DNA of 64,000 nt from a virus (lineage: Duplodnaviria > Heunggongvirae > Uroviricota > Caudoviricetes), in IMG/VR virus record IMGVR_UViG_3300028048_000115, positions 18,061 through 82,060 of that record, one strand, 5' to 3'. Numbering within the stretch: position 1 is the first letter of the stretch; each line of letters starts with the position of its first letter. The position numbers and the translations under genes were made by a program. Below the pieces are notes generated by a model, which worked only from the letters and a program-made list of their open reading frames with translations, was not told the origin of the DNA and did no database searches. Below are positions 10,945-62,997 of the stretch, in pieces.

Positions 10945-11100
10945 TTCATTTTTTGGATCCATTTAAAATTTTTGTATTTCCTATATATATAGAATATATA
11001 AATTTTTGTGTTTACACTTAATTTTTTGGATCCATTTAAAATTTTTTTGGATCCATTTAAAATTTTTTTGGATCCATTAAAAAATTATTGTGTCTGTACA
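10945..11100. repeat. array of the TTTTTTGGATCCATTTAAAATTTTT direct repeat (4 copies) plus an AT palindrome tatatatagaatatata
   Basis: read directly. Confidence 0.8.
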
Positions 11101-11123
11101 ATATAATTATTCAGTCTTTTTGA

Positions 11124-11192
11124 AAAGTCTTTATAAATCAATAACTTAGTAAGAGAACTATTTTTGTTAAGTCTTTGATTTATAAAGACTTT
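11124..11192. repeat. structured element: 18-bp perfect inverted repeat AAAGTCTTTATAAATCAA ... TTGATTTATAAAGACTTT around an approximately 33-nt loop
   Basis: read directly; further copies at about 17213-17285, 31365-31440, 38573-38635 and 54833-54900. Confidence 0.75.
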
Positions 11193-11210
11193 TTAAAAAA
11201 GCATTAAAAA

Positions 11211-11226
11211 TGTGATTTACATCACA
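11211..11226. promoter_or_regulatory. CRP-consensus-like palindrome TGTGATTTACATCACA upstream of a promoter
   Basis: perfect TGTGA-N6-TCACA; similar sites at 10309, 22357, 25555, 34381 and 54921. Confidence 0.5.
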
Positions 11227-16991: not shown

Positions 16992-17329
16992 GAATTAAAT
17001 AATGCGAACAACAAGAATTTATGATGCGGTTTCACGTTCAATTTATAAAGATAAAATATTTAGATATCCGAATTCACGGTCAGATGCGTTAGTTATTTTT
17101 TATAAAACATTATTTAATACATTGGTTAATCCACAGAAGTCAATAGACCTTAAAATGTATCTGAAGTCTTGATTAAAGCCAATAAAAAAGCACTCAAAAA
17201 TGAGTGCTTAAATAAAAAGTCTTTACAAATCAAAGACTTAACTAAAATAGATCTTTAACTAAGTTATTGATTTATAAAGACTTTTAAAAAACGTTAAAAA
17301 ATACTGAATAATTATTGTGTAAACACAAA

Positions 17330-31313: not shown

Positions 31314-31553
31314 TTTTAAAGCTCCTTAATTAAGGAGCTATTTTTGTCTATAAATTATTCAGTCTTTTTAAAAAGTCTTTATAAATCAATAACTTAGTAA
31401 GAGATATATTTTTGTTAAGTCTTTGATTTATAAAGACTTTTTTATTTTGTGAAAAAATTGTTAAAAAATATTTGCTTTTCTTATATACACATATTATAAT
31501 TATTGACATATTAATTTTATGGTGCTTGAGAAATATTTTAAAGGAGCGTTTAA

Positions 31554-38010: not shown

Positions 38011-38274
38011 ATGACAGAAGAGCAATTTGATACTTTAATGGCTTGCAAGCCGTTAGTTTCTAAGATATTTAAAGATATATCAAAAATTGAGCTTGATTTA
38101 TATTTTCAATATGTATATTTTCAATTAAGCCAAACACCAGAAGAAGAAAGGATAAATGGTAAGGTAAAACAACTAAATACATTTATTTCACATTTAAGTA
38201 ATATTGTATTGTCTCTTGACTATATAATAAGCGAAATAAACATTATAGAGGAATTTCAAAATGACAGAACATAA
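38011..38274 (+). CDS. hypothetical protein
   Basis: ORF track. Confidence 0.3.
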   Translation: MTEEQFDTLMACKPLVSKIFKDISKIELDLYFQYVYFQLSQTPEEERINGKVKQLNTFISHLSNIVLSLDYIISEINIIEEFQNDRT

Positions 38275-38521
38275 AAAAGTAATGAAGTTTTTAAAAAGAT
38301 TTAAAAAGAATTGGACAAATCAGGAAATTCCTGATTTTATGATCAATAATAATACTTTACTTGCAGAGCATAAAAGGTTTCTTTATGAAATTAGAATCTT
38401 AAATGAATATGTAGCAGTTTATCAATGTTTTGAAGACGAGACACAAGAAAAAATTTGCTCATCAAAGGTTTCAAGAAAATATCTTGATGATCTTATTTTC
38501 TGGTTAAATAAAAACGCTTAA
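38261..38521 (+). CDS. hypothetical protein
   Basis: ORF track. Confidence 0.3.
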   Translation: MTEHKKVMKFLKRFKKNWTNQEIPDFMINNNTLLAEHKRFLYEIRILNEYVAVYQCFEDETQEKICSSKVSRKYLDDLIFWLNKNA

Positions 38522-38851
38522 TTTTGAAATTTGAGCACTCATTTTTGGGTGCTTTTATGTGAATTTTTTAAAAGTCTTTATAAATCAATAACTTAGTTTT
38601 TAGTTAAGTCTTTGATTTGTAAAGACTTTTTTATTTAAGTACCAAAAATAGTTGTTTTTTTTTAATATAAAGATTTATAATTAATATGTGAGGAGAAAGA
38701 AAATGAAAGTTTTACGTTTTAACATACTTGGTACTCAACTGTGAAGGTCGCCCAAATGGTACAAATTGCCAACAAAGAATTAAATAGAATAAAATGGTTT
38801 TTAAGAAACTTGAAAATCCAAATAATGCTAATTTAAGCGAGGTTCGATAAA

Positions 38852-46235: not shown

Positions 46236-46303
46236 TTTTTAGAGCACTCTTTTGAGTGCTCTTTTTATAAATATTATAAATTATTTTATACAGGAGTTTT
46301 TAA

Positions 46304-46495
46304 ATGTTAGGTTTAGATATATTAAAAAAGTACGATCAAAAACTTAAATCATTTGTAAATAGCAAAGTTATACCACCAGAAGCAACCGAAACAGAAGTAA
46401 CTAATATTTTTGGTTCATCTGGTTCAAATAATCAAAAACCACAAGATAAGCCATCTTTAATTGATAATACCGAAAGCGGTGTAAGTGAATATTAA
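46304..46495 (+). CDS. small hypothetical protein
   Basis: ORF track; TATAAATA box upstream. Confidence 0.3.
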   Translation: MLGLDILKKYDQKLKSFVNSKVIPPEATETEVTNIFGSSGSNNQKPQDKPSLIDNTESGVSEY

Positions 46496-46507: not shown

Positions 46508-47773
46508 ATGTCTATTTTTTCATCAAAAATTTTTACCTTTGTTAATTCATTTCAGGAAGTTCCAAATGTAAATCTGTATTTTTATAATAATGCAGGTGAA
46601 TTATTAAATGACGTTTCCGTGACTCCAGTTGTTACTGAAGAAGGTTTATCAATTCCTCAGTTTTCATACGATGGCGAAATTAAATCAGTTTCATGGGTTG
46701 CTACAGGAAAGTTTAACAGTTCATTAGAAACAGACGATGTTCAAGACGAATTAAAAGGTCAGATTGACGCTAACGAAAACTTTAATGACATTACAGTCAA
46801 TGGTTTCTGTTATACTACCGGTCTTGCTAATGTGGATGCCTACAAAAAAGACGGAACTTATGCTTGGCAGTTTTCAAGAAATCAAACTGGATCCGTAGAT
46901 TTATTTATTGGTCAGAAAATCGTTGTTCCTAAGTCCACAATTTTCAATAACTCTGGTGTACTTTTAAGAAAAGACAGTACAAAAGGTACAAAGACAACCT
47001 ATATTGTTTCAGCACTTAGTTCACGTTTTAAACTTAGAGCAAACATAGCTGATGGTGCAGAAGACGTAAAGAATGGTGTAATTTCAGCTGGCCTTGATGG
47101 CAACTTTGGTGTTATGAGAAATGACAGTATTGTTGAACAGAAATGGAACAAATCTGATTTGAACATTGGTGTTGCCGTTGGAGATTATATCTTTATTAAG
47201 GAATACTCTGGCAAATTCTGTAAGTTCATTTCTGAAGGAATTACTTTACAAGACGCCAACGGTCAAGTCGTGGATAGTACATACGAATGTTATTGCCAAC
47301 AGGAAAACGGTGGTGTTGAATTTTTAGTAAGTGCTGTTTCTGAAAATTGGACTTTCTCATTTGTTGAGGCTATTGCTCCTAATACAATTACCAAAGATGA
47401 CAACTGCCGTGTAAATCTTTGGAAATTCAACGAAGAGAGTGGAACACAGCAGAATTTCAACGGATTAAATGGTAGTGCTTGCACAACTGTTACAACCGAC
47501 TTTTTGACTGATGAAGTAAGTATTGAAATTTGTCCTAAGAACCCAAATGCTGGTTCAGACGTTGTTTATGGTGATTTATCCTGGGTCAAATTGAACGGTA
47601 CATTCATCAGTTTAGATGGTTCAGAAATGATAGATACTGTTAATCACGCTGAAATCACAGCAACCGATATTACACTCACATATAATCCTGAAACAGGAAG
47701 ATTTAATGTGTCCAATATCTTTACTGGATATAAGATTGTAATTACTGCAAGTTCACCAGTTTATAGTGAATAA
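46508..47773 (+). CDS. hypothetical protein, probably a virion structural protein (late)
   Basis: ORF track; late-promoter-like box upstream. Confidence 0.35.
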   Translation: MSIFSSKIFTFVNSFQEVPNVNLYFYNNAGELLNDVSVTPVVTEEGLSIPQFSYDGEIKSVSWVATGKFNSSLETDDVQDELKGQIDANENFNDITVNGFCYTTGLANVDAYKKDGTYAWQFSRNQTGSVDLFIGQKIVVPKSTIFNNSGVLLRKDSTKGTKTTYIVSALSSRFKLRANIADGAEDVKNGVISAGLDGNFGVMRNDSIVEQKWNKSDLNIGVAVGDYIFIKEYSGKFCKFISEGITLQDANGQVVDSTYECYCQQENGGVEFLVSAVSENWTFSFVEAIAPNTITKDDNCRVNLWKFNEESGTQQNFNGLNGSACTTVTTDFLTDEVSIEICPKNPNAGSDVVYGDLSWVKLNGTFISLDGSEMIDTVNHAEITATDITLTYNPETGRFNVSNIFTGYKIVITASSPVYSE

Positions 47774-47851
47774 TTAGAAAGTGCCTAGAAAATAGGCACT
47801 TTATTCAAAATGTTTTAACCAGAAAAAGGCACTTTATTCAAAATGATTTGA

Positions 47852-48328
47852 CTAAACTTTATTCAAGCGGAATTGCAACAAAAGTCTGGTCATAATTATT
47901 ATTATATTTTCCGTTGCAATTGTAGCCGTATATTTTAAATTTAGTTCCTTTCTTAACCCAAAAATCCAAAACAATAGGAGCAACGGCACCACGGCGTTGT
48001 TGTTCGTTCCAATAGACAGTCTTATCATTTTCATCTAATATATTAACACTAATTGCTGAACCAGGTTCAGTCGCACGAGCAGTAATATGAATTAAACAAT
48101 CAAATTCGGTAGTGTATGTGTAAGTTATATTTCCACTTGTTTCAAAAATAATATTTTTCCGTTATTAACAATAGGTGCTAAATTTTTTGCTTTACTGTAA
48201 TTTGGTAACATATTTCCTATCTCTAAAATTTTAAAAATATCTGTGTTGTCAGCAACGCCTAAAATATTTTCGGTAGTGTGTTGCTGTGTTAACTCTGTAA
48301 ATTTAGATAATGTTTCTAAGCTTATCAT
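47852..48328 (-). pseudogene. frameshifted gene whose N-terminus is homologous to the DGR target protein (divergently oriented)
   Basis: MISLETLSKFTELTQQ... versus MITLENLKDYFDLQEQ...; two ORF fragments 48125-48328 and 47852-48034 in different frames. Confidence 0.45.
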
Positions 48329-48451
48329 TGTAAAATACTTTCTTTAACTTGCTCTTGTTGTAACTCTGTAAACTGTTTAAGTGAATTTAAATCAATCATA
48401 ATTTTTTTAAATGTTTTTATAAATATATTTATATAACATTGAGGACAAATA

Positions 48452-49768
48452 ATGATAACTTTAGAAAACTTAAAAGATTATTTTGACTTGCAAGAACAAA
48501 ATAATCCTATTGTTATTGCCAGCTTAACAGATTTATTGGGGGTTATTCAGATGGCAGGAGATACATATACTAAGGCTGAAATTGACGCTAAAATTCAAGA
48601 AATCAAGGACACCATTAGTTCAGGTATAAAATTAAAAGATGTAGTTTACGGTTTCCGTATTCGTGTAGAGCAAGACAGCTCTTGTAGTGTTTCTTACTTA
48701 GAGGATGCCATTGGTGCCACACCAGCATTTATGAATTTCTCAAACGGCTGCTTTAATTACGGTTCTTGGAAAAAGGCATTCTTTATGCCTAGACCTTGTA
48801 TGTTGAAGTTTGATGGTACCGTCGATTATTACTTGGATCCTGACGATTTTGAATATCGTTCAGACGGAGTAACTCCTTCAGACGTTGCAAATGAGAATTA
48901 CGAAGGAAATGCGATGATAGAGTGGAATAAAATTTATTATAAGATTGTTCCACTTGAAGGTCGTGATGGTTGTGCTGATATTTTCATTTCAGACCACAAA
49001 GCAGACAACGACTATGTGTGCTATTCATTTATTGATAACAATGGAAATGAGAAAGACCATTTCTACACTCCAATTTACAATGGTACCGTTATCAACGGAA
49101 AATTAAGAAGTTTAAGTGCTAAAACTCATACTGTTAATGTAGCTGAAAATGTTTTGTGCAATTATGCAGAGGCTAACGGTGACGGTTGGAGTGCAGAAAC
49201 ATACGTGGATAGAGTTCTGATTAATTGCTTATTAGTTTTAATGGGTAAGTCTCTAAATTCACAGAAAATCTACGGTTACGGACATTACACAGGTGGTTCA
49301 AGTGCTTCAAGTAATTACAAGACAGGTCTGTTAAACCGCAGAGGTATGTTCTGGGGTAGCACAGGCAACACTGGTGTCAAAGTCTTTGGTATGGAAAATT
49401 ACTATGGTGAAGTTTGGAGACCAAATCTTGGTGTTATGAACCTCAAGGGTAAGTATTACATCAAGTTACACGGTCCTTATAATACCACAGGTGAAGGATA
49501 CACAGAAGCAGGCAATGTTCCTAATGCGAGCGCCAGTTACATCACTAAGATGAATTTTGATAACAACCTTATGTTACCTATTGCCGTTGGCGGGTCAGAG
49601 AACACATACTATGCTGACGGTATGTGGTCTAATAACTCCCAGGACGATATGCTCTTCAGTGGCGGTAGCTCCGGCGTTGGTTTGGTTGTTGGTGCCTTTA
49701 CGTTTACCGTAGCCGATGTGGCATCGATTTCCATCTGGGCCTACGGCGCCTCTTGCTCCTACAGGTAG
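48452..49768 (+). CDS. DGR target protein (variable protein; probably a tail fiber or receptor-binding protein) with the VR at its C-terminus
   Basis: 3' end matches the TR with A-specific mismatches; TATAAATA late box upstream. Confidence 0.75.
   Translation: MITLENLKDYFDLQEQNNPIVIASLTDLLGVIQMAGDTYTKAEIDAKIQEIKDTISSGIKLKDVVYGFRIRVEQDSSCSVSYLEDAIGATPAFMNFSNGCFNYGSWKKAFFMPRPCMLKFDGTVDYYLDPDDFEYRSDGVTPSDVANENYEGNAMIEWNKIYYKIVPLEGRDGCADIFISDHKADNDYVCYSFIDNNGNEKDHFYTPIYNGTVINGKLRSLSAKTHTVNVAENVLCNYAEANGDGWSAETYVDRVLINCLLVLMGKSLNSQKIYGYGHYTGGSSASSNYKTGLLNRRGMFWGSTGNTGVKVFGMENYYGEVWRPNLGVMNLKGKYYIKLHGPYNTTGEGYTEAGNVPNASASYITKMNFDNNLMLPIAVGGSENTYYADGMWSNNSQDDMLFSGGSSGVGLVVGAFTFTVADVASISIWAYGASCSYR
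49661..49760 (+). repeat. DGR variable repeat (VR)
   Basis: about 100 bp matching the reverse complement of 51009-51108; all about 15 mismatches fall at TR adenines. Confidence 0.8.
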
Positions 49769-49866
49769 TTCATTTCTGCTTAAAGAGCACTCAAAAGAGT
49801 GCTCTTTTTTGAAAATGTTTCCCCGATGAAAACGTAATTTTCGGAAATTTAAAGGTTCCAATTTTT

Positions 49867-50895
49867 TCAGGTTCCAAATCTCACTACTGTATTTAATAAA
49901 ATTTGTTCCTTTTTCTTTGAATTTTTTGCTTTATCGTGGTTAGAAATAATTTTTCGGCACTTATTAAAATTGAAATTCAAGTGCTCCTTGGAATATTCAT
50001 AAGTGTCTGTGATTTTTAAAAATCCCCAATATGGAAGTGTTTGACGAGCATCAAAAACCGTCATTCGCTTTTTCTTTTTGACCTTTCTGACCTTTCTCCT
50101 GATTTTGCTTAATAATCTCTTTCTAAGAGTTGTCCTATTGTCATAAAATCTGAAACCAAGGTAATCGGCAAAATCACCATTACCGAAACAACCAATTTTG
50201 AAATTTGGTTTTATTTCTAGTTTGAGATCTGCTAAATACATTTTAATAAGTTCAAATTTTACAAGCAAATCTTCCTTTGTTTTTTCAATGAAAAGCATAT
50301 CGTCCATGTATCTACAATAAAAAGGTATCCTCAATACCTCTTTTACCCAGTGGTCGAATTTGCTTAGATAAAAATTTGCGTACCACGGACTCGTATAAAA
50401 TCCAATAGGCAAACCTGGACTGTATGAGTCTATAATTTTAAATAATTCCTGTTTAAATTCAAAGTCAGCAATTATTTTTAATTTTTCTTTTAATATATTA
50501 TGATCGATATTTTCAAAAAAGTGTTTAATGTCAATCTGCAAGAAGTAATAATCGCCGTGTTTCCTGATAAATCCCTCAACCGCACTTTTAGCAGAATGTA
50601 AACCTCTACCAGATATTGACGAACAAATCAACCTATAAAAACTTTTTCTAAAAATAGGTTTAAGAATATTCATTTGAGCGTGCTGAACTACCAAGTCGGT
50701 GGGACTAGGTACCACAATAGTACGTTTCTTGTGAGACGTGTGGTCAAAGAAAGTCACAGGTTTAGCAACTGATGGAACATAGTTCCTAAGCATTTCTGTT
50801 GTGAAAATTTTTGGAGCTCTTTTAGCAGTATTAACTGCAATAGCAATGTTATCTTCGGAAAGATACATTCCCATAAGATGTTTATAAGATTTCAT
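49867..50895 (-). CDS. DGR reverse transcriptase
   Basis: GLPIGFYTSPWYANFYL (DGR-type motif 4) and YMDD box. Confidence 0.85.
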   Translation of the reverse strand: MKSYKHLMGMYLSEDNIAIAVNTAKRAPKIFTTEMLRNYVPSVAKPVTFFDHTSHKKRTIVVPSPTDLVVQHAQMNILKPIFRKSFYRLICSSISGRGLHSAKSAVEGFIRKHGDYYFLQIDIKHFFENIDHNILKEKLKIIADFEFKQELFKIIDSYSPGLPIGFYTSPWYANFYLSKFDHWVKEVLRIPFYCRYMDDMLFIEKTKEDLLVKFELIKMYLADLKLEIKPNFKIGCFGNGDFADYLGFRFYDNRTTLRKRLLSKIRRKVRKVKKKKRMTVFDARQTLPYWGFLKITDTYEYSKEHLNFNFNKCRKIISNHDKAKNSKKKEQILLNTVVRFGT

Positions 50896-51008
50896 TTTCT
50901 CCCTTTGTAAGGTTCTAATTAAATACTACTGACAGCTCAAGGTTCTTACGCTTGATGCGGGAAAATTTCGGGTCCAAAAAACCACAAGTAATCTTAGAAT
51001 ATTATTTC

Positions 51009-51108
51009 GGAGAAATGAGGAGCAAGAGGCGCCGTAGTTCCAGTTGGAAATCGATGCCACATTGTTTACGTTAAACGTAAAGGCACCAACAATCAAACCA
51101 TTGTTGGA
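51009..51108 (-). repeat. DGR template repeat (TR), AAC/AAT-rich
   Basis: encodes ..NNGLIVGAFTFNVNNVASISNWNYGASCS..; Asn codons sit at the positions that vary in the VR. Confidence 0.8.
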
Positions 51109-51264
51109 GTTACCGCCGGGGACCGGCAAAGGTACCAATATATTCACTCTAAGATTCAAAACTATTTATTACTTATGGAATTTAAATACAAATTTTTAAA
51201 ATATGTTGACTATTTTATAAAAAGTTCTATAATGTAAATGTAACAACGAAATGAGAGAAAAAAA

Positions 51265-51780
51265 ATGAAAGTATTTGAAGAAATGATTACCGCCCTAAAG
51301 ACTCTGAATATTCCTGTTGCAGATAACATTGAATTTAAGGTTGTTGATAAATTTCCAAAAAGGTCAACTCTCGGAAATTGCTCTCAAAGAGAAACCAAGT
51401 TTATTATTAGAGTGCGTTCCGATTTAAGTGATTCAATATTTCGTTCCACGATTGCTCACGAGCTTATTCACACCTGTCCAGGTTGTTTCAATCATAGATC
51501 AAAATTTAAAAGGTACGCTTCAAAAGTTAATAAGGCTCTTGGTTTAAAATGTGGTTACCACGAAGTTGGACCACAAAACTTAGAAAAATACAAGTACGTT
51601 ATCCGTTGCAAGTGTTGTGGAACTCTTGGTGCTTATAACAGATTAAACAATAAACTCAAAATGATTGCTCTCGGTTTACCAGGTATTAAATGTGCAAAAT
51701 GTTATGGAAATCAATTTGAGTTTGTGAATGGCAGTGGCAATGCCAAGAAGTTAAAAGAGGACTTTGAAGAAGAACTTTAA
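51265..51780 (+). CDS. SprT-like zinc metalloprotease domain protein
   Basis: HELIH (HExxH) and multiple CxxC. Confidence 0.45.
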   Translation: MKVFEEMITALKTLNIPVADNIEFKVVDKFPKRSTLGNCSQRETKFIIRVRSDLSDSIFRSTIAHELIHTCPGCFNHRSKFKRYASKVNKALGLKCGYHEVGPQNLEKYKYVIRCKCCGTLGAYNRLNNKLKMIALGLPGIKCAKCYGNQFEFVNGSGNAKKLKEDFEEEL

Positions 51781-52310
51781 GAATACACATCAAAAACATT
51801 TTTATTTTCTGGCACCGATTTTGCTTTAACAATGTCGTGCCAGTCGTATTTAATGGTTACACTCATATCTTGAGTGGTTCCATTGTCTGTTGTATCTAAT
51901 GACAAATCCCCGATGTTTTCAATTAAGCAGTTGTGGAAATTTTCAGTAAATAAAATATTTCCTTTATTATTATAAACATTTATATACAAGTCAAAAAATC
52001 TTGGTGCGTATGTAGCACTTGTGGAATGCTTTGATTTTAACATATCATTGTAAAATAAATCATACACCTTAAAATCTTCATCAATTAAAACATTGAAAGT
52101 TAAATCCCCGTGGGAATACGTAGAAGAAGGAAGATTGTGCTTCATTCCTTGTGATGAAGTTTCAACTAATGAGAAAGATAAACCAGGTAACGAAACGGAC
52201 TTAATGTAAAATTCCATTCCCTGAAATTGAGGGCTACCTGCAATAAAGTTAGTTTTTTGAGCAAAATTTAAAGTATTATTTTCCATTTTTTGGTATTTAA
52301 GTATTGACAA
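51777..52310 (-). CDS. hypothetical protein, possibly a gp19-like tail-tube-fold structural protein
   Basis: weak pattern similarity only. Confidence 0.3.
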   Translation of the reverse strand: MSILKYQKMENNTLNFAQKTNFIAGSPQFQGMEFYIKSVSLPGLSFSLVETSSQGMKHNLPSSTYSHGDLTFNVLIDEDFKVYDLFYNDMLKSKHSTSATYAPRFFDLYINVYNNKGNILFTENFHNCLIENIGDLSLDTTDNGTTQDMSVTIKYDWHDIVKAKSVPENKNVFDVYS

Positions 52311-52360
52311 TTTATAATATTTATTTTATTATATAATTAAAATATTTTAAAGGATAAAAA

Positions 52361-53182
52361 ATGCGACACGATTATACAAACGAATTAGAATTAAAATCAA
52401 TTCTAATCCGAATTAAAAATGCCCGAATTGAGCACAATACGGTCAAGACTGCTAAGACAATTCCTAATAACGAAAAGGCGTCTTTAATCAGGAACCGAAG
52501 AATTGCAAAGTATATTCTTTGGAATTCAAGACTTCAGCACACAAAAAAGACCAGCAATCCAAAGAAGGCAAAGGAAGTCCAAGAATTTTTAAAAACAAGA
52601 ATTATTGAACTCTCGGAATCCACTTCAATTGACACAAAAAATTATGAGAAGTTTGGAAACATTGTTATGACAATGGTAAGACATATTCTCACTAAGGCCC
52701 AGTTCAGAGGATATTCTTACTACGATGACTTTATGAGCGACTCCGTTTATAAGGTTTTAAAATATCTTGATAATTTTGACCACACAAAAAAGTCTAAGAT
52801 TTCTGGTCAATCTGTAAATGCGTTTGCTTATCTTTCAACAATTATTCATAATGCTATTATATATATTATCAAGAAGAAAAAGAAGGAACAGCAATTTATT
52901 CAGGAACAGGTAAACTATAAGCGTATTGAAATGGGGTTACCAATTATTAACTTTGATGTTAAAGACGATACCGAGCAAAGGTTCGTTAAGGTAAGTCCTA
53001 AAAACACAGTTAAAAAGATTTCGGATGCTATTGAAAATAACAAAGAATTTATTAAATCAAAAAATAACACTCTCAATATTGAGTACATCACAGATGAACC
53101 TTTGGATATTGATGAGTTGATTGCTATTCAGGAATACAAAAAAATGTACAAAAACGTTAAAATTACGGAAGGTATTGAGTAA
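52361..53182 (+). CDS. late sigma factor (T4 gp55-like) with an N-terminal extension
   Basis: GYSYYDDFMSDSVYKVLKYLDNFDHTK...NAFAYLSTIIHNAIIYIIKKKKKEQ parallels the gp55 core. Confidence 0.6.
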   Translation: MRHDYTNELELKSILIRIKNARIEHNTVKTAKTIPNNEKASLIRNRRIAKYILWNSRLQHTKKTSNPKKAKEVQEFLKTRIIELSESTSIDTKNYEKFGNIVMTMVRHILTKAQFRGYSYYDDFMSDSVYKVLKYLDNFDHTKKSKISGQSVNAFAYLSTIIHNAIIYIIKKKKKEQQFIQEQVNYKRIEMGLPIINFDVKDDTEQRFVKVSPKNTVKKISDAIENNKEFIKSKNNTLNIEYITDEPLDIDELIAIQEYKKMYKNVKITEGIE

Positions 53183-54717: not shown

Positions 54718-54920
54718 AGGAATCCTTTTAAAAATAAAGCACTCAATTTTTGGGTGCTTTTTATTTTTTATTCACTTAAAAATTTTTGTGTTTTCATACT
54801 ATAATTATTCAGTATTTTTTACGTTTTTTAAAAAGTCTTTATAAATCAATAACTTAGTTGAAGATCTATTTTTGTTAAGTCTTTGATTTATAAAGACTTT
54901 TTATTTAAGGGAATAAAAAA

Positions 54921-54936
54921 TGTGATTTTTATCACA
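54921..54936. promoter_or_regulatory. CRP-consensus-like palindrome TGTGATTTTTATCACA followed by a MotA-box-like promoter
   Basis: read directly. Confidence 0.45.
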
Positions 54937-59153: not shown

Positions 59154-62100
59154 TTACATACTTACACGGTCTTTTATTTCTGACATTTTAGCGTCATTCA
59201 TTCTTGTGGATCCATTAACATTAGAATAGCCTAGATAACCACAGACTCTTGAAATTGTTGTGGTATTAGAACTTCCACAATGAGGACATTTGTTTCCGCC
59301 ATTTTGATAATCAAACCCACACTCATTGCAATGTGAACTATCAAAGTTTACACCTTGATAAAAACCTTTCTGCATACCTCTAACAATAATTGTTTTAAGT
59401 GCTTCAAGATTTTCTGGATTATCAATTCTTACGTACTGAATGTGGCCACCATTTACTTTATGGAAACACTCAAACTCAGCATCCTGCTTATCAACTGGTG
59501 TAATATTCGCACCCACGTGACAATGGAATGAGTTTGTGAAATAATCACCAAAACGGGTGTCGCCTGTTAACTCAGCGTACTGAACTGCTTGTTTTCCACA
59601 AAGACTTTCTGCTGGGGTACCATAAAGTGCGTATAAATGATTATCTTCCTTTTTAAATTTTTCTATCTTTTCTAATATAAAATCAATAACTTTTGAAGCA
59701 AATTGAGATTTGTCTTCATAAATTGTCTTGCCGTTCCAAAGAACCGTACTTTCATTTAACGCAGTAATTCCAAAACTTGATGTCATATAACGGGTTAAAT
59801 TGCCTATGCAGTCGTCTGGATTTAAAGTACCACCGTAAAAACCACCTTGAGTGAACGCAAGTGGATTTGTGGATGCCTTGATACTTGCGATAAAGTCATA
59901 ACGCTTGCACAAAAATTGTCTAATTGTCTGTAAGCGACTTTCTAAAAGTGACCAAAACTTTGATTTCCATTCGGAACCAAATTCTTGTTTTGCCACTGCC
60001 ATAATTACAGGAATATTCAATGATACAGCACCAATGTTACATCTTCCAACAGTAATACTTTCTTTAGTTTCTGGATCCTCCCAATGAGATAGGTAAGCTC
60101 TACAATTATGTGAAGCAACTCCAGAAAATACAAATGTTTCGGACTCCGTTTGGACATCATAAGAATAACCAACTTCATTATCAGTCTCAATATTTGTAAT
60201 CTTAATAGGTTCCTCATTTTCATTCATTAAAAATGAATTGGTCTCTAATTCATTCGCAAGAATTTGACCGTTGTCCGTAACAAATGGGTGGTCTTCGGTA
60301 ACCCTGATTGTTGCACCGTTTTCAAATGTTATCTTTAGCCAATTAGTAACATTCTTATTCCTGATAATTCTCTTTAGTTTTGTGTATGTGCCATCAATAT
60401 CTTGAATACTAATATTAAAGCTTTCTAAATCAAGAACATCAGAAACTTCATTGCTAAAGGTATCAAATGTATTTTTAACTTCTTTATGAGTTACTGATAA
60501 TTTCAAATCAGCGTAATCGTTGCTTCTAATCTTATCTTCCCATAAATCAACAATTTCAATTCCTAATTGTTTTGCGTATTCACGTTTTTCCTCGTGATAT
60601 TTTGGTCCTCTCTTGTGATATCCTTTCTCTGAATATTCGGTATCAGAATTTTTTGAATGAGTAGCAAAATCCTGAACTTCAATTCCATAATTTAACTTAG
60701 GGAAAAATACATCAATTTCATAAGTTTTACCGTTGAAGGTAAATTTAGAATTGCGGACAAAGTCCTTTTCAGTTAAGCATTCCTCTTTATACATCTTTTC
60801 TGTATAACCAGAATATTTTAAGTCATCTACAAGTTTAAGCTCCAAATATGAATCCCAAATGTTAAACAGCGATACGTCATAACCTCGTTCAACTCGTACA
60901 TTTCTCCTTGGGAATTGGATTCCAAAATGTTCTTCAAAATCAATTCTGCAAGGTTTTCTTCCAATAGTTTCCTTGAATTTTCTTGCCCAAAGATTTACTA
61001 GATCACCATCAAATGAGGCATAACCGTTTTCTGAAAAATTATGCTCATTTAATATCTTTTTTGAACCCTTTGAGTGCTCAAACTTGGTTTCTAACCAATT
61101 TGCAGGTCTTCCATTTTTTTGGTAATAATGATTAAACAGGTCACCAATTTTTACATTGCTAAAATACTTTGAGCGCTTGATATTCACTCTTTCGTTGTAA
61201 TCAATACAACCCATTGGTGAAACAATAGTGCCGTAATTTTTAAATTCTTGAGCAACTTTGTTATGATCAATATCTCCACTTAAAGAGAGGTAATCAGGGT
61301 ACATACATTTTGCAGATGTTTTGATACAGTCGTCAAATAATTCTGAACTGTATTGATCATTAGCGATTTGGTTTTCATCATATAGATAAACCAATTTTGG
61401 AAACACTACTGAAACACCGTTGTGTCCTTTCTTACGTGTTTTTAAAATACTCTTTCCAATCTCTTTCAACCAAAACTTATCATTTTCAGAAATGTTGGTA
61501 TCCCATTGACCAAAGGTTAATGTTGTAAATGCAAAATCGCCTCTTGAGCAAGGTACTGTATTGAGTTTTAATTCTAATGATTGGAAACCTTGTTTTAACT
61601 CTGTAATAGTATCTTCAATAGCGTATCGTTCAGCGTCTAACTTATTGATACCTCTGTGAATATGAATATCAATGCTTCTGTTAAAAGACTTTTTAACATA
61701 AGGTAATAAAACCTTATCAATTTCAGCAAGAGTAAAACCACCAAATTGCTGAGCAGTGGCAACAAGAGTAATATCTCCAATAACCTGTAATGCAGACAAC
61801 ACGCTTTTAGGTTCATTATAATGAATGTTTGACATTGTGAAACCGTCTTTTAAAACGTTACCAATATCAAAAAGACAGCAGTTGATGGAACCAAAAATCA
61901 TATCACGCATATCGTGGATATAAATGTCACCTCGTTTTGTTAGGAACTTTTCTGTCTTGTTTAATTCAAATTCTTGATATAATCTTTTGGTTGTTGAACC
62001 TCTTATTAATGAACCCTTTGTACTGATTAAACTTGAGTCAAAATTTGCGTTCTCACGGTCACCTAAGTGAATAATGTCATCTGCTTCTTCCTTGAGTTTT

Positions 62101-62387
62101 CTCCAAGTAGCGTAATCGGTTGCTTTGTAATTTCGGTATCCGTAATATGCTTCTGCAATATCGTTATAGTTAAAATGTTTTAAAGCATTAACAACAATGC
62201 TGTGAATTTTAATTGTGCTAATACTTTCGGCATTTACCATTGTTTGACAATACTCCGCAATTTGAGTGAGAATATTGTTAGGAATGCTTTCACCTATGTG
62301 GTCTGCGGCCTTGATGATTGCATTGATGATTTTAGAATTATTCCAAAATTCTGTTTCATCATTTTTCTTAATAACTCTAATTGGCAT
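59154..62387 (-). CDS. nrdD: anaerobic ribonucleoside-triphosphate reductase with an inserted intein
   Basis: ATP-cone at the N-terminus; glycyl-radical RVCGY and Zn CPHCGS at the C-terminus; extein junction VSPMG|C...HN|CRAYLSHW. Confidence 0.85.
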   Translation of the reverse strand: MPIRVIKKNDETEFWNNSKIINAIIKAADHIGESIPNNILTQIAEYCQTMVNAESISTIKIHSIVVNALKHFNYNDIAEAYYGYRNYKATDYATWRKLKEEADDIIHLGDRENANFDSSLISTKGSLIRGSTTKRLYQEFELNKTEKFLTKRGDIYIHDMRDMIFGSINCCLFDIGNVLKDGFTMSNIHYNEPKSVLSALQVIGDITLVATAQQFGGFTLAEIDKVLLPYVKKSFNRSIDIHIHRGINKLDAERYAIEDTITELKQGFQSLELKLNTVPCSRGDFAFTTLTFGQWDTNISENDKFWLKEIGKSILKTRKKGHNGVSVVFPKLVYLYDENQIANDQYSSELFDDCIKTSAKCMYPDYLSLSGDIDHNKVAQEFKNYGTIVSPMGCIDYNERVNIKRSKYFSNVKIGDLFNHYYQKNGRPANWLETKFEHSKGSKKILNEHNFSENGYASFDGDLVNLWARKFKETIGRKPCRIDFEEHFGIQFPRRNVRVERGYDVSLFNIWDSYLELKLVDDLKYSGYTEKMYKEECLTEKDFVRNSKFTFNGKTYEIDVFFPKLNYGIEVQDFATHSKNSDTEYSEKGYHKRGPKYHEEKREYAKQLGIEIVDLWEDKIRSNDYADLKLSVTHKEVKNTFDTFSNEVSDVLDLESFNISIQDIDGTYTKLKRIIRNKNVTNWLKITFENGATIRVTEDHPFVTDNGQILANELETNSFLMNENEEPIKITNIETDNEVGYSYDVQTESETFVFSGVASHNCRAYLSHWEDPETKESITVGRCNIGAVSLNIPVIMAVAKQEFGSEWKSKFWSLLESRLQTIRQFLCKRYDFIASIKASTNPLAFTQGGFYGGTLNPDDCIGNLTRYMTSSFGITALNESTVLWNGKTIYEDKSQFASKVIDFILEKIEKFKKEDNHLYALYGTPAESLCGKQAVQYAELTGDTRFGDYFTNSFHCHVGANITPVDKQDAEFECFHKVNGGHIQYVRIDNPENLEALKTIIVRGMQKGFYQGVNFDSSHCNECGFDYQNGGNKCPHCGSSNTTTISRVCGYLGYSNVNGSTRMNDAKMSEIKDRVSM
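60105..61208 (-). other. intein (about 368 aa) in NrdD carrying a Vsr/PD-(D/E)xK-like endonuclease domain
   Basis: starts CIDYNERV, ends VASHN before Cys; internal IDVFFPKLNYGIEVQDFATH resembles the Vsr fold. Confidence 0.6.
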
Positions 62388-62997
62388 TATTGGTGTCCTT
62401 CTTTGGTTTTTCAAAAATTGCTTTTTTAATTGCGTTTAAATGTGCTTTACGGGAGTCTAAACCATTTAGGCCACCGTTAATTCTTTTTGTAGTAACCGCA
62501 AGATCACGTTCACGACTTAACATATTGATTTTCCAAAACCAAATTGCACTCTTAACAGCACCCTCAACGGTACTGAAATAGTCAGGATCGGTAACGTCAA
62601 GTGCTTGCATTGCAAGAGTATAATTTCGTTTTCCTGTTAACTGAATTAAACCTCTTCCTCTGTATTTCCAACCATCACCAGAGTATTCATCACCATTTCC
62701 CATTCTGTTAGCATAAACAACATTTGCGATTTTTTCTGGTCGTCTTACATAGTCTAATGGGTTTCTTGGAACATAGGTATATACAAAGTATTTTGGAAAC
62801 ACTCTCTTTAAGCCTTCTAAAGAATAGTTTAAATTTTCAACAACAAATCTAAACCCTCCAGACTCGTGGGCACATTGTGCTAAGAAAATAAGTTTGTTTT
62901 CATCTTCCCAAGGTTCCTTATCTAACTCTTCTGCAAGTTTTTCGATAATGCCAGGAATAGCATTGGGATACGCTTTCTTAATTTTAAGAATATCCAT
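62377..62997 (-). CDS. endolysin, glycoside hydrolase family 19-like
   Basis: AQCAHESGGF...GRGLIQLTG..NY motifs. Confidence 0.6.
   Translation of the reverse strand: MDILKIKKAYPNAIPGIIEKLAEELDKEPWEDENKLIFLAQCAHESGGFRFVVENLNYSLEGLKRVFPKYFVYTYVPRNPLDYVRRPEKIANVVYANRMGNGDEYSGDGWKYRGRGLIQLTGKRNYTLAMQALDVTDPDYFSTVEGAVKSAIWFWKINMLSRERDLAVTTKRINGGLNGLDSRKAHLNAIKKAIFEKPKKDTNNAN

What the first reader, a model, noticed from the sequence alone, without database searches (positions are those of the whole stretch)
48452..51160. Diversity-generating retroelement diversifying the C-terminus of a late structural gene
Seen directly: the last roughly 100 bp of the + strand gene (49661-49760, encoding ...GVGLVVGAFTFTVADVASISIWAYGASCSY) match the reverse complement of 51009-51108 upstream of the minus-strand RT gene. 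All roughly 15 mismatches fall at adenines of the 51-kb copy, for example aacaat versus ggcgtt and aactggaac versus atctgggcc. The template encodes a run of Asn (AAY) codons. The RT has the DGR-specific GLPIGxxTSxxxANxYL block and YMDD. Homology ends abruptly after ggcgcctcttgctcct, which resembles an IMH boundary. The TR-RT cassette is inverted relative to the target and no Avd-like gene is obvious (the neighbour is SprT-like). The target has a TATAAATA late box and lies among structural genes, so it probably tropism-switches a receptor-binding protein.
Basis: seen in the sequence. Interest (0 to 1): 0.9.

Follow-up and report, generated by a model that had tools for sequence, protein, structure and literature searches.

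The report
Avd-less DGR in T4-type phage
This is a genuine diversity-generating retroelement, a reverse-transcriptase system that rewrites the tip of a phage tail-type receptor-binding protein; it is a well-known kind of system, here in a less usual setting: a large T4-type phage, with the template cassette inverted and no Avd helper gene.

Summary
VR 49661-49760 (+) matches the reverse complement of 51018-51117 (TR) over 100 ungapped bases. There are 13 mismatches, not about 15. All 13 fall on TR adenines (22 A in the TR; P=7e-11) and on codon positions 1 or 2.

The RT (49867-50895, minus strand) is closest to the Bordetella phage DGR RT among solved structures. About 45 homologous RTs sit next to their own A-biased TR/VR pairs.

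Sibling phages from other samples carry different VRs that differ almost only at TR-adenine columns. So mutagenic retrohoming has acted in this lineage.

The TR is bracketed by a covarying RNA duplex plus hairpin, like the "cPRT Stop" of the BPP-1 DGR RNA.

There is no Avd, and the TR-RT cassette is convergent with the target. Both fall within published DGR architectural variation.

The backbone has T4-type replication and late-transcription genes. The neighbours are replication genes, not a structural module.

Every sibling contig recovered lacks an intact cassette at this site. Three keep remnants of the RT 3' end, which points to repeated loss.

Verdict: real, and a new member of a known kind. 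Interest is moderate.

The parts
48418..48425 (+). TATAAATA box (T4-type late-promoter consensus), 27 nt upstream of the target start codon
   Evidence: 21 exact copies in the window against 9.7 expected. A gp55-like late sigma factor is encoded at 52361-53182. Function is inferred, not shown.
48452..49768 (+). DGR target gene (438 aa): helical N-terminus, then a TaqVP/Mtd-like body ending in a C-type-lectin-fold domain
49661..49760 (+). Variable repeat (VR), codons 404-436 of the target
   Evidence: 13 of 13 mismatches to the TR are at TR adenines; sibling phages differ here at TR-A columns.
49744..49760 (+). IMH-like 3' end of the VR (CGGCGCCTCTTGCTCCT): adenine-free, G+C-rich, identical in the TR; homology stops here
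   Evidence: Assigned by analogy with the BPP-1 IMH; not tested functionally.
49782..49807 (.). Palindrome AAAGAGCACTC-AAAA-GAGTGCTCTTT between the convergent target and RT genes. It is likely a bidirectional terminator and possibly also the post-IMH hairpin.
   Evidence: The same palindrome follows the RNase H gene at 46241-46264, so it is not DGR-specific. It is absent in L085 and L086 and present in L088.
49867..50895 (-). DGR reverse transcriptase (342 aa), YMDD catalytic motif, motif GLPIGFYTSPWYANFYL
   Evidence: Pfam RVT_1 2.8e-17, phrog_1423 5.7e-76. The best solved-structure match is 8ub7 (328 aa, motif GIPIGSLTSQLFANVY) at 7e-18, against 2e-11 for a group II intron RT. I take 8ub7 to be the BPP-1 bRT from my own knowledge. 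Homologous RTs lie beside A-biased TR/VR pairs in about 45 loci.
50896..51017 (-). Spacer RNA between TR and RT. It holds the 3' arm of the TR-bracketing duplex (51010-50990), a hairpin (50987-50968), then adenosines.
   Evidence: MFE z=-2.45. Relatives show 14 of 17 pairs with compensatory changes and cognate duplexes more stable than non-cognate ones.
51018..51117 (-). Template repeat (TR), co-oriented with and upstream of the RT. It has 22 adenines and 8 AAY codons.
   Evidence: 6.6e11 possible peptide variants and no stop codons reachable.
51135..51156 (-). 5' arm of the TR-bracketing duplex (cPRT-Stop-like)
   Evidence: For the BPP-1 precedent.
51163..51170 (-). AATAAATA (one mismatch from the T4 late box), ending 6 nt before the duplex arm. 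This is a candidate promoter for the TR-RT transcript.
   Evidence: sequence read directly. Inference only.
49876..51171 (.). Approximate extent of the TR-RT cassette that is present here and absent in the 98%-identical sibling contig L085
   Evidence: L085 keeps the RT stop codon and its last two codons. L086 keeps about 16 bp and L090 about 400 bp of the RT 3' end.

Best explanation
This is a bona fide three-part DGR (target with VR, TR, RT) without an Avd gene. It is carried by a large phage with T4-type replication and late-transcription genes.

Proposed mechanism:
1. The minus-strand cassette is transcribed as one RNA. In order it contains the 5' duplex arm, the TR, the spacer and the RT open reading frame. 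Transcription possibly starts from a late-type promoter at 51170-51163.
2. The flanks of the TR pair with each other (51156-51135 with 51010-50990). With the adjacent hairpin they form a 'cPRT Stop'-like scaffold that positions the RT.
3. The RT copies the TR into cDNA and misincorporates opposite adenines.
4. The cDNA replaces the VR (49661-49760) of the convergently oriented target gene. The adenine-free, G+C-rich 3' end acts as the IMH-like boundary.
5. This recodes up to 12 residues (8 Asn codons and 4 others) on the ligand-binding face of a C-type-lectin-fold tail protein, so it changes receptor specificity.

Shown: the A-specific TR/VR pattern, the RT affinity, the fold, the covarying RNA structure in relatives, VR variation at TR-A columns among sibling phages, and the presence/absence polymorphism of the cassette.

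Inferred: promoter use, priming chemistry, independence from Avd, virion location, and receptor binding.
For: - TR/VR pattern: 13 of 13 mismatches at TR adenines, P=7e-11, all at codon positions 1 or 2.
- TR and RT are co-oriented, with the TR 122 nt upstream of the RT start.
- The RT is nearest to 8ub7 among PDB chains (7e-18, against 2e-11 for a group II intron RT and weaker for retrons and Drt). I take 8ub7 to be the BPP-1 bRT.
- All NCBIfam group II, retron and Drt models score far below their cut-offs.
- The listed phage relatives of the RT are overwhelmingly phages known to carry DGRs: BPP-1, VHML, hankyphage-type Bacteroides phages, crAss-like phages and Faecalibacterium phages (that they carry DGRs is my own knowledge).
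- About 45 viral contigs encode homologous target and RT with their own A-only TR/VR pairs and no room for avd.
- Natural variants: six proteins in the 90% cluster differ mainly at residues 402-431. L085 VR has 12 of 12 mismatches to the TR at A, L088 13 of 14, L086 14 of 19.
- Window versus L085: all 15 VR differences are at TR-A columns, Fisher P=7e-13.
- RNA: a TR-bracketing duplex in the window. Relatives show 14 of 17 pairs with compensatory changes, matching the cPRT Stop described for BPP-1.
- No Avd match among 69 small ORFs in the window. Architecture A (TR-RT only) makes up 29% of catalogued DGRs, and components on different strands are known.
Against: - There is no direct evidence of current activity in this genome. 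The only other contigs with the intact cassette (L084, L087) are 100% identical to the window and may come from the same sample.
- All five sibling contigs that cover the site lack an intact cassette there, so the element is evidently dispensable and often lost.
- The RT has SP where canonical DGR RTs have SQ.
- The promoter assignments are consensus matches only.
- The 421-aa neighbour gave no information, so attachment of the target to the virion is unsupported by local context.
- The duplex arms used for the covariation test were extracted by hand, with the TR replaced by a linker.
Confidence: 0.9

Rival explanations
1. A relic DGR. The cassette is intact in sequence but no longer retrohomes, for example because a required accessory factor such as Avd is missing. 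Under this reading the VR differences date from an ancestral, active element.
For: No Avd in the window. Siblings repeatedly lost or truncated the cassette. The motif reads SP instead of SQ. There is no independent second VR haplotype linked to an intact cassette.
Against: The RT ORF is full-length with YMDD. The TR keeps all 8 AAY codons and its flanking duplex. The whole clade of about 45 relatives lacks avd between VR and TR, yet each shows A-only mismatches. Relatives with SV or SQ at the same position show the same pattern, so the Q is not essential in this clade. Wu et al. describe a whole avd-less lineage.
Confidence: 0.2
2. The RT belongs to a different retroelement (retron, group II intron, Abi/DRT defence RT), and the 100-bp repeat is an ordinary diverged duplication.
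For: NCBIfam's best, sub-threshold, hits are group II intron, Drt2, Drt3a and retron models. That library returned no DGR RT family, whether because it holds none or because none matched.
Against: All those scores are far below the family cut-offs (87.7 against 300, and so on). The best solved structure is 8ub7, which I take to be the DGR bRT. Mismatches fall only at A (P=7e-11). No intron or retron RNA was found by Rfam. The target has the DGR variable-protein fold.
Confidence: 0.01
3. Assembly artefact: the inverted orientation, or the presence of the cassette at all, results from mis-assembly across the VR/TR repeat.
For: VR and TR are 87% identical inverted repeats 1.26 kb apart. Repeats like this can in principle confuse assemblers or drive real inversions.
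Against: The same arrangement appears in three assemblies from different pipelines (JGI 87.7 kb, ENA k141 20 kb, Logan 14 kb). They are identical over 9-13 kb. Sibling contigs L085, L086 and L090 retain RT 3'-end remnants in the same orientation directly downstream of the target. The repeat is only 100 bp with 13 mismatches.
Confidence: 0.02

Closest known systems
Bordetella phage BPP-1 DGR (mtd-avd-TR-brt)
   Same: Adenine-specific TR-to-VR information transfer. The VR lies at the 3' end of a tail receptor-binding gene with a C-type-lectin fold. AAY-rich TR and a G+C-rich IMH-like boundary. The RT is the closest solved relative. The TR is bracketed by a duplex between upstream sequence and spacer, followed by a short hairpin and adenosines ('cPRT Stop').
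   Different: No avd gene. The TR-RT cassette is on the opposite strand, convergent with the target. RT motif is TSP rather than TSQ. Only 7 nt lie between the TR end and the duplex arm, whereas in BPP-1 the Sp strand of the duplex begins at Sp59. The carrier is a large phage with T4-type replication genes rather than a 42-kb phage (BPP-1 being temperate is my own knowledge).
Architecture A (TR-RT core, no accessory gene) DGRs of Wu et al. 2018, including the avd-less lineage
   Same: Three-component element with no Avd, HRDC, MSL or CH1 gene. Wu et al. record components on different strands and 48 architectural variants.
   Different: I did not place this RT in their tree, so lineage membership is inferred from architecture only.
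Target-TR-RT cassettes of Butyrivibrio phages Arawn/Idris, Lactobacillus phage LBR48, Faecalibacterium phage FP_Epona, and about 45 uncultured viral contigs
   Same: Homologous target (38-53% identity) and RT (30-46%). No avd between VR and TR. The same spacer design.
   Different: In all of them VR, TR and RT are co-directional, with the TR 100-250 bp after the VR, inside small (about 30-66 kb) genomes at the end of a tail module. Here the TR-RT is inverted and the pair sits in the replication region of a T4-type genome. The first roughly 45-64 residues of the target are not shared.
TaqVP (Thermus aquaticus DGR variable protein, PDB 5vf4)
   Different: 16% sequence identity. TaqVP is encoded by a bacterial genome, according to the entry name. 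The protein here carries an extra helical N-terminus of low model confidence.

Membership tests
Diversity-generating retroelement (DGR) | Near-identical template/variable repeat pair whose differences fall at template adenines | tested here: met
   100 bp, 13 of 13 mismatches at TR-A, P=7e-11.
Diversity-generating retroelement (DGR) | VR inside the 3' end of an ORF, with TR adenines at codon positions 1 and 2 (AAY codons) | tested here: met
   The VR covers codons 404-436 of 438. There are 8 AAY codons, and every observed change is at position 1 or 2.
Diversity-generating retroelement (DGR) | RT of the DGR clade adjacent to the TR | tested here: met
   The TR is 122 nt upstream on the same strand. 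The best PDB match is 8ub7, which I take to be the BPP-1 bRT, at 7e-18. RT homologues sit beside A-biased repeats in about 45 loci. No formal phylogeny against a reference RT set was run.
Diversity-generating retroelement (DGR) | Canonical RT motif-4 signature [I/L/V]GxxxSQ | tested here: not met
   The window has IGFYTSP. Relatives have TSQ (13), TSV (31) or TSP (2, both copies of the window sequence), all next to A-only TR/VR pairs, so Q is not invariant in this clade. That this signature is canonical comes from my own knowledge and from the 8ub7 alignment.
Diversity-generating retroelement (DGR) | IMH / IMH* at the 3' end of VR and TR, which sets directionality | tested here: inconclusive
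   There is an adenine-free, G+C-rich 17-mer identical in VR and TR, followed by an abrupt loss of homology. The downstream palindrome is a repeated terminator-like element and is not specific to the VR.
Diversity-generating retroelement (DGR) | Accessory variability determinant (Avd) or another accessory gene | tested here: not met
   No Avd-family Pfam match among 69 small ORFs of the window. Nothing besides target and RT is shared with relatives. This feature is not defining for Architecture A, which lacks accessory genes and makes up 29% of DGRs.
Diversity-generating retroelement (DGR) | Target protein with a C-type-lectin (or Ig) fold that displays the VR | tested here: met
Diversity-generating retroelement (DGR) | TR-flanking RNA duplex with adjacent hairpin and adenosines (cPRT Stop of the BPP-1 DGR RNA) | tested here: met
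   Window duplex 51156-51135 with 51010-50990, plus a hairpin. In 13 relatives, 14 of 17 pairs have compensatory changes. The cognate duplex is the most stable pairing for 12 of 13 elements. The arms were chosen by hand, so the counts lean towards the structure.
Diversity-generating retroelement (DGR) | Actual mutagenic retrohoming (VR turnover) | tested here: met
   The evidence is indirect. Sibling phages carry different VRs that differ at TR-A columns: 15 of 15 differences for L085, and 12 of 12, 13 of 14 and 14 of 19 mismatches to the TR. Activity in this particular genome was not tested.
Phage with T4-type replication and late transcription | gp43-type DNA polymerase, gp32 SSB, RNase H, gp55 late sigma factor, gp33-type co-activator, TATAAATA boxes | tested here: met
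   The closest cultured relatives are roughly 190-kb Vibrio phages (44-48% identity) and Campylobacter CP220-type phages. Capsid and tail genes are outside the window, so morphology was not tested.
Group II intron / retron / defence RTs | Score above the family cut-off; associated intron or msr-msd RNA | tested here: not met
   TIGR04416 scores 87.7 against a cut-off of 300, and the Drt and retron models are also far below their cut-offs. No Rfam match in 47500-52500 at E<=1.

The most novel reading that the evidence does not exclude
An Avd-independent target+TR+RT module of the kind found at the tail tips of small gut and rumen phages has been captured by a large virulent T4-type phage. It sits there as a self-contained late-promoter island inside the replication region. 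The TR RNA starts at a T4-type late promoter placed exactly at the 5' arm of a cPRT-Stop-like duplex. This would show that this RNA scaffold works without Avd. The 1.3-kb TR-RT unit is a dispensable plug-in that sibling phages repeatedly delete, which freezes whichever VR they last made.
Probability: 0.3. Interest if true: 0.5.

Novelty: new member of a known kind. Interest (0 to 1): 0.4.

Why it matters
DGRs are best documented in temperate phages and bacterial chromosomes, and reports in lytic phages are recent. I found none in a T4-type genome, either in the literature searched or among the 85 listed rows of the 140 sequenced phage records with a related RT.

A working DGR on a large virulent phage would be a compact natural example of programmable host-range variation: about 6.6e11 receptor-binding variants from 100 bp.

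The clade also gives a set of minimal, Avd-less DGRs that keep the cPRT-Stop RNA design. That is useful for asking what Avd actually contributes, and for engineering small DGR cassettes.

The presence/absence polymorphism among near-identical siblings offers a natural experiment on the cost and benefit of carrying the cassette.

Tried and rejected
- **Metagenome scan.** I scanned for GGCGCCTCTTGCTCCT to collect more VR and TR copies. 
- **Viral-contig scan.** A 29-mer spanning the VR end found nothing in the viral contigs.
- **L084 and L087 as independent copies.** Both are 100% identical to the window, so they add no VR haplotype.
- **T4 synteny.** In T4, rnh is followed by tail-fibre genes 34-38 (my own knowledge), so I asked whether the target occupies a tail-fibre locus. 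I dropped the idea because in the closest cultured relative, Vibrio phage pv27, rnh is followed by primase.
- **The 421-aa upstream neighbour as a structural partner.** It has no homologues beyond its own 90% cluster, and the single-sequence AF2 model has pLDDT 34. No conclusion was possible, and the last fold search was not spent on it.
- **The SprT-like gene as an Avd substitute.** It is present next to the target in L085, which lacks the cassette. It is absent from all relatives' cassettes.
- **The post-VR hairpin travelling with the cassette.** It is missing in L085 and L086 but present in cassette-less L088. The same palindrome also follows rnh.
- **The small ORF after the RT in relatives (phrog_20201) as an Avd-like accessory.** It has no Avd match in Pfam and is absent from the window.
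- **Rfam.** No known RNA family in 47500-52500.
- **Sample accessions.** A literature search for them to learn the habitat found nothing.
Full report
**1. Observation**

The best ungapped register between the end of the + strand ORF and the region upstream of the minus-strand RT aligns 49661-49760 with the reverse complement of 51018-51117. Over these 100 bases there are 13 mismatches. Every one has an adenine in the 51-kb copy (8 A>G, 3 A>C, 2 A>T).

With 22 adenines among 100 template bases, the probability that all 13 fall on A is 7e-11. All 13 are at codon position 1 or 2 of ORF 48452-49768. The template reads AAC or AAT at eight codons, and none of the possible A-to-N changes creates a stop codon. 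The repertoire is 6.6e11 peptides.

Homology stops exactly after CGGCGCCTCTTGCTCCT, a 17-mer without adenines. A degenerate scan with the TR, ignoring A positions, found no second VR in the 64 kb.

**2. The parts**

*Reverse transcriptase.* The RT ORF (49867-50895, minus strand, 342 aa) matches Pfam RVT_1 (2.8e-17) and PHROG 1423 'reverse transcriptase' (5.7e-76).
- Among all solved structures its best match is 8ub7 at 7e-18, a 328-aa RT carrying GIPIGSLTSQLFANVY. I take this to be the Bordetella phage bRT. It scores ahead of a group II intron RT (2e-11), Drt2 and retron RTs.
- NCBIfam models for group II, retron and Drt RTs all score far below their cut-offs.
- Phage genomes with a related RT are largely the phages known to carry DGRs: BPP-1, VHML, hankyphage-type Bacteroides phages, crAss-like phages, Faecalibacterium phages and Butyrivibrio phages Arawn/Idris (that they carry DGRs is my own knowledge).
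- The catalytic YMDD is present.
In relatives the same position is Q (13 loci) or V (31 loci). All of these sit next to A-only TR/VR pairs, so the Q is not essential in this clade.

*Target protein.* The target has no Pfam or NCBIfam match. It hits PHROG 5302 'tail protein' (2.9e-81) and belongs to a very large unannotated family of 2363 proteins at E<=1e-10.
- An AlphaFold2 model built on 36 homologues is confident (pLDDT 87.5, pTM 0.85).
- Foldseek agrees (TaqVP 1.4e-12, then Mtd).
- The VR encodes residues 404-436 of 438, the C-terminal end of that fold.
- In Butyrivibrio phage Idris the homologue is the last gene of the tail module. It follows the tape-measure protein, a tail protein and an endopeptidase tail protein, and is followed by the RT.
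- The first roughly 45-64 residues are not shared with relatives. They are helical and of low confidence in the model. This is what one expects of a lineage-specific virion-attachment segment, though that is an inference.

*No Avd.* No Avd-family match appears among the window's 69 small ORFs. Only the target and the RT are shared between the window and relatives' cassettes.

**3. Relatives and architecture**

Seventy-nine viral contigs encode a target homologue. In about 45 of them I found an A-only TR/VR pair and an RT.
- The arrangement is always VR, then TR 100-250 bp downstream, then RT, all on one strand, with no room for avd.
- The window is the only case where TR-RT is inverted, so that the RT converges on the target.

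According to Wu et al. 2018, 29% of catalogued DGRs have a bare TR-RT core (Architecture A), a whole lineage lacks avd, and components on different strands occur. Neither feature takes this element outside known variation.

**4. RNA anatomy**

Folding the minus strand from 51160 to 50890 gives a long-range duplex that brackets the TR. Positions 51156-51145 pair with 51001-50990, extended by 51142-51135 with 51010-51003. An 8-bp hairpin (50987-50968) follows, then adenosines (z=-2.45).

Relatives have the same design:
- a duplex between the sequence just upstream of the TR and the spacer,
- a 4-bp hairpin with a tetraloop,
- then AAAA and a conserved AAAATTAACTCG-like stretch.

On 13 hand-extracted constructs, with the TR replaced by a GAAA linker, RNAalifold predicts 17 pairs, and 14 of them show compensatory double changes. 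Cognate arm pairs are much more stable than non-cognate ones: -16 to -24 kcal/mol against means of -5 to -14, and the cognate pair is best in 12 of 13.

This matches the 'cPRT Stop' seen by cryo-EM in the BPP-1 DGR RNA, which is an upstream:spacer duplex, a short stem-loop and A-minor adenosines. The authors surveyed it only in DGRs that have Avd. Its conservation in an Avd-less clade is a small extension of that work.

On the minus strand an AATAAATA box (51170-51163) ends 6 nt before the duplex arm. That is the spacing expected between a T4 late box and its start site (my own knowledge). The target has an exact TATAAATA 27 nt before its ATG. The window holds 21 such boxes against 9.7 expected, and it encodes a gp55-like sigma factor. 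Late co-expression of the target and the TR-RT RNA is therefore plausible but only inferred.

**5. Evidence of activity in nature**

The 90%-identity cluster of the target holds six sequences. They are 86-96% identical, with differences concentrated at residues 402-431.

I recovered the DNA for four siblings from other sequencing runs. Compared with the window's TR:
- L085 VR has 12 of 12 mismatches at adenines.
- L088 has 13 of 14.
- L086 has 14 of 19.
- The more divergent L089 has 11 of 28.

Between the window and L085, which is 98% identical in its flanks, 15 of 59 differences in the gene lie in the 100-bp VR. All 15 are at TR-adenine columns (P=7e-13). Twenty-one of the 22 TR adenines vary in at least one VR. 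So retrohoming has acted repeatedly in this lineage.

L084 and L087, the only other contigs with an intact cassette, are 100% identical to the window and add nothing.

**6. Cassette polymorphism**

- L085 matches the window at 98% on both sides but lacks about 49876-51171. It retains only the RT stop codon and its last two codons.
- L086 keeps about 16 bp of the RT 3' end.
- L090 keeps about 400 bp.
- In L086, L088, L089 and L090 the sequence then continues into homologues of window genes from about 38.2-39.3 kb.

The remnants are in the same orientation as here. The inverted cassette was therefore ancestral to this group and has been lost or truncated several times. Alternatively, it may have been moved elsewhere in genomes I cannot see.

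**7. Genomic context**

The window encodes the following:
- a gp43-type DNA polymerase and a gp32-type SSB,
- RNase H, and DNA and RNA ligases,
- NrdD and NrdG,
- a glucosyltransferase,
- a gp55-like late sigma factor and a gp33-like co-activator.

The closest cultured relatives are roughly 190-kb Vibrio phages (44-48% identity) and Campylobacter CP220-type phages.

The immediate neighbours of the DGR are RNase H, a 63-aa ORF, a 421-aa ORFan, an SprT-like gene, a gp19-like tube paralogue and the sigma factor. The claim that the target 'lies among structural genes' is not supported. In Vibrio phage pv27, rnh is followed by primase, so the target/TR-RT pair looks like an island inserted into a replication region.

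None of the 85 listed rows of the 140 phage records with a related RT is a T4-type genome. Two literature searches gave no report of a DGR in such a phage. DGRs on lytic phages in general have been reported.

**8. Verdict**

It is a new member of a known kind. Its architecture (no Avd, inverted cassette) is already catalogued. Its RT motif variant, its T4-type carrier, the conserved cPRT-Stop-like RNA without Avd, and the repeated loss of the cassette among siblings are modestly interesting details rather than a new principle.

Whether it is active in this genome today is not shown. I put the probability that it is a bona fide DGR at about 0.9, and the relic reading at about 0.2.

Noticed in passing
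window 11095-11220, 17200-17320, 31360-31450, 38560-38645, 54795-54925: A dispersed intergenic repeat family with a conserved core of about 75 nt. The core is itself an imperfect palindrome (AAAAGTCTTTATAAATCAA ... TTGATTTATAAAGACTTTT). It is reminiscent of the repeated promoter/stem-loop elements of T4-type phages (my own knowledge). One copy (38560-38645) lies just beyond the edge of the block (about 38246-38563) that is rearranged next to the target gene in sibling contigs L086, L088, L089 and L090.
   Followed up: partly
window 49782-49807 and 46241-46264: The same 26-nt palindrome (AAGAGCACTC AAAA GAGTGCTCTT) follows both the DGR target and the RNase H gene. It is a reused terminator-like element. 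It is deleted in L085 and L086 and present in L088.
   Followed up: yes
window 59154-62414 (-): The NrdD-like anaerobic ribonucleotide reductase is 1086 aa and matches in two blocks (residues 12-409 and 766-1086). The interruption in between matches a homing endonuclease at residues 563-630. This suggests an intein or an inserted endonuclease.
   Followed up: no
window 1939-3171 (+): A 410-aa transposase-like ORF (phrog_506, 6e-45) inside a phage replication region.
   Followed up: no
window, one of the 69 small ORFs listed (not located): One small ORF matches Pfam Tad2-like (Thoeris anti-defence 2) at 7.7e-22. Others match DUF1653, the 3D domain, endonuclease VII and Cpn10.
   Followed up: no
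L012 7695-8000, L029 7798-8055, L062 5866-6219, L080 7536-7973: In co-directional relatives a small ORF of PHROG 20201 (unknown function) directly follows the RT in several clades. It has no Avd match and is absent from the window. It could be an unrecognised accessory gene or simply a neighbouring phage gene.
   Followed up: partly
window 46508-47773 (+): A 421-aa ORF sits just upstream of the target. A TATAAATA box at 46266 precedes the 63-aa ORF (46304-46495) that lies immediately before it. It has no homologue outside its own 90% cluster among 5.8 billion proteins, and single-sequence AF2 gives pLDDT 34.
   Followed up: yes
window 49761-49777 vs 51017-51011: After the end of VR/TR homology, the VR has ACAGGTAGTT followed by CATTTCT, and the TR continues directly with CATTTCT. 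So the TR looks like the VR region minus the 10 nt that hold the stop codon. This may be a trace of how the TR arose, or it may be chance (sequence read directly).
   Followed up: no
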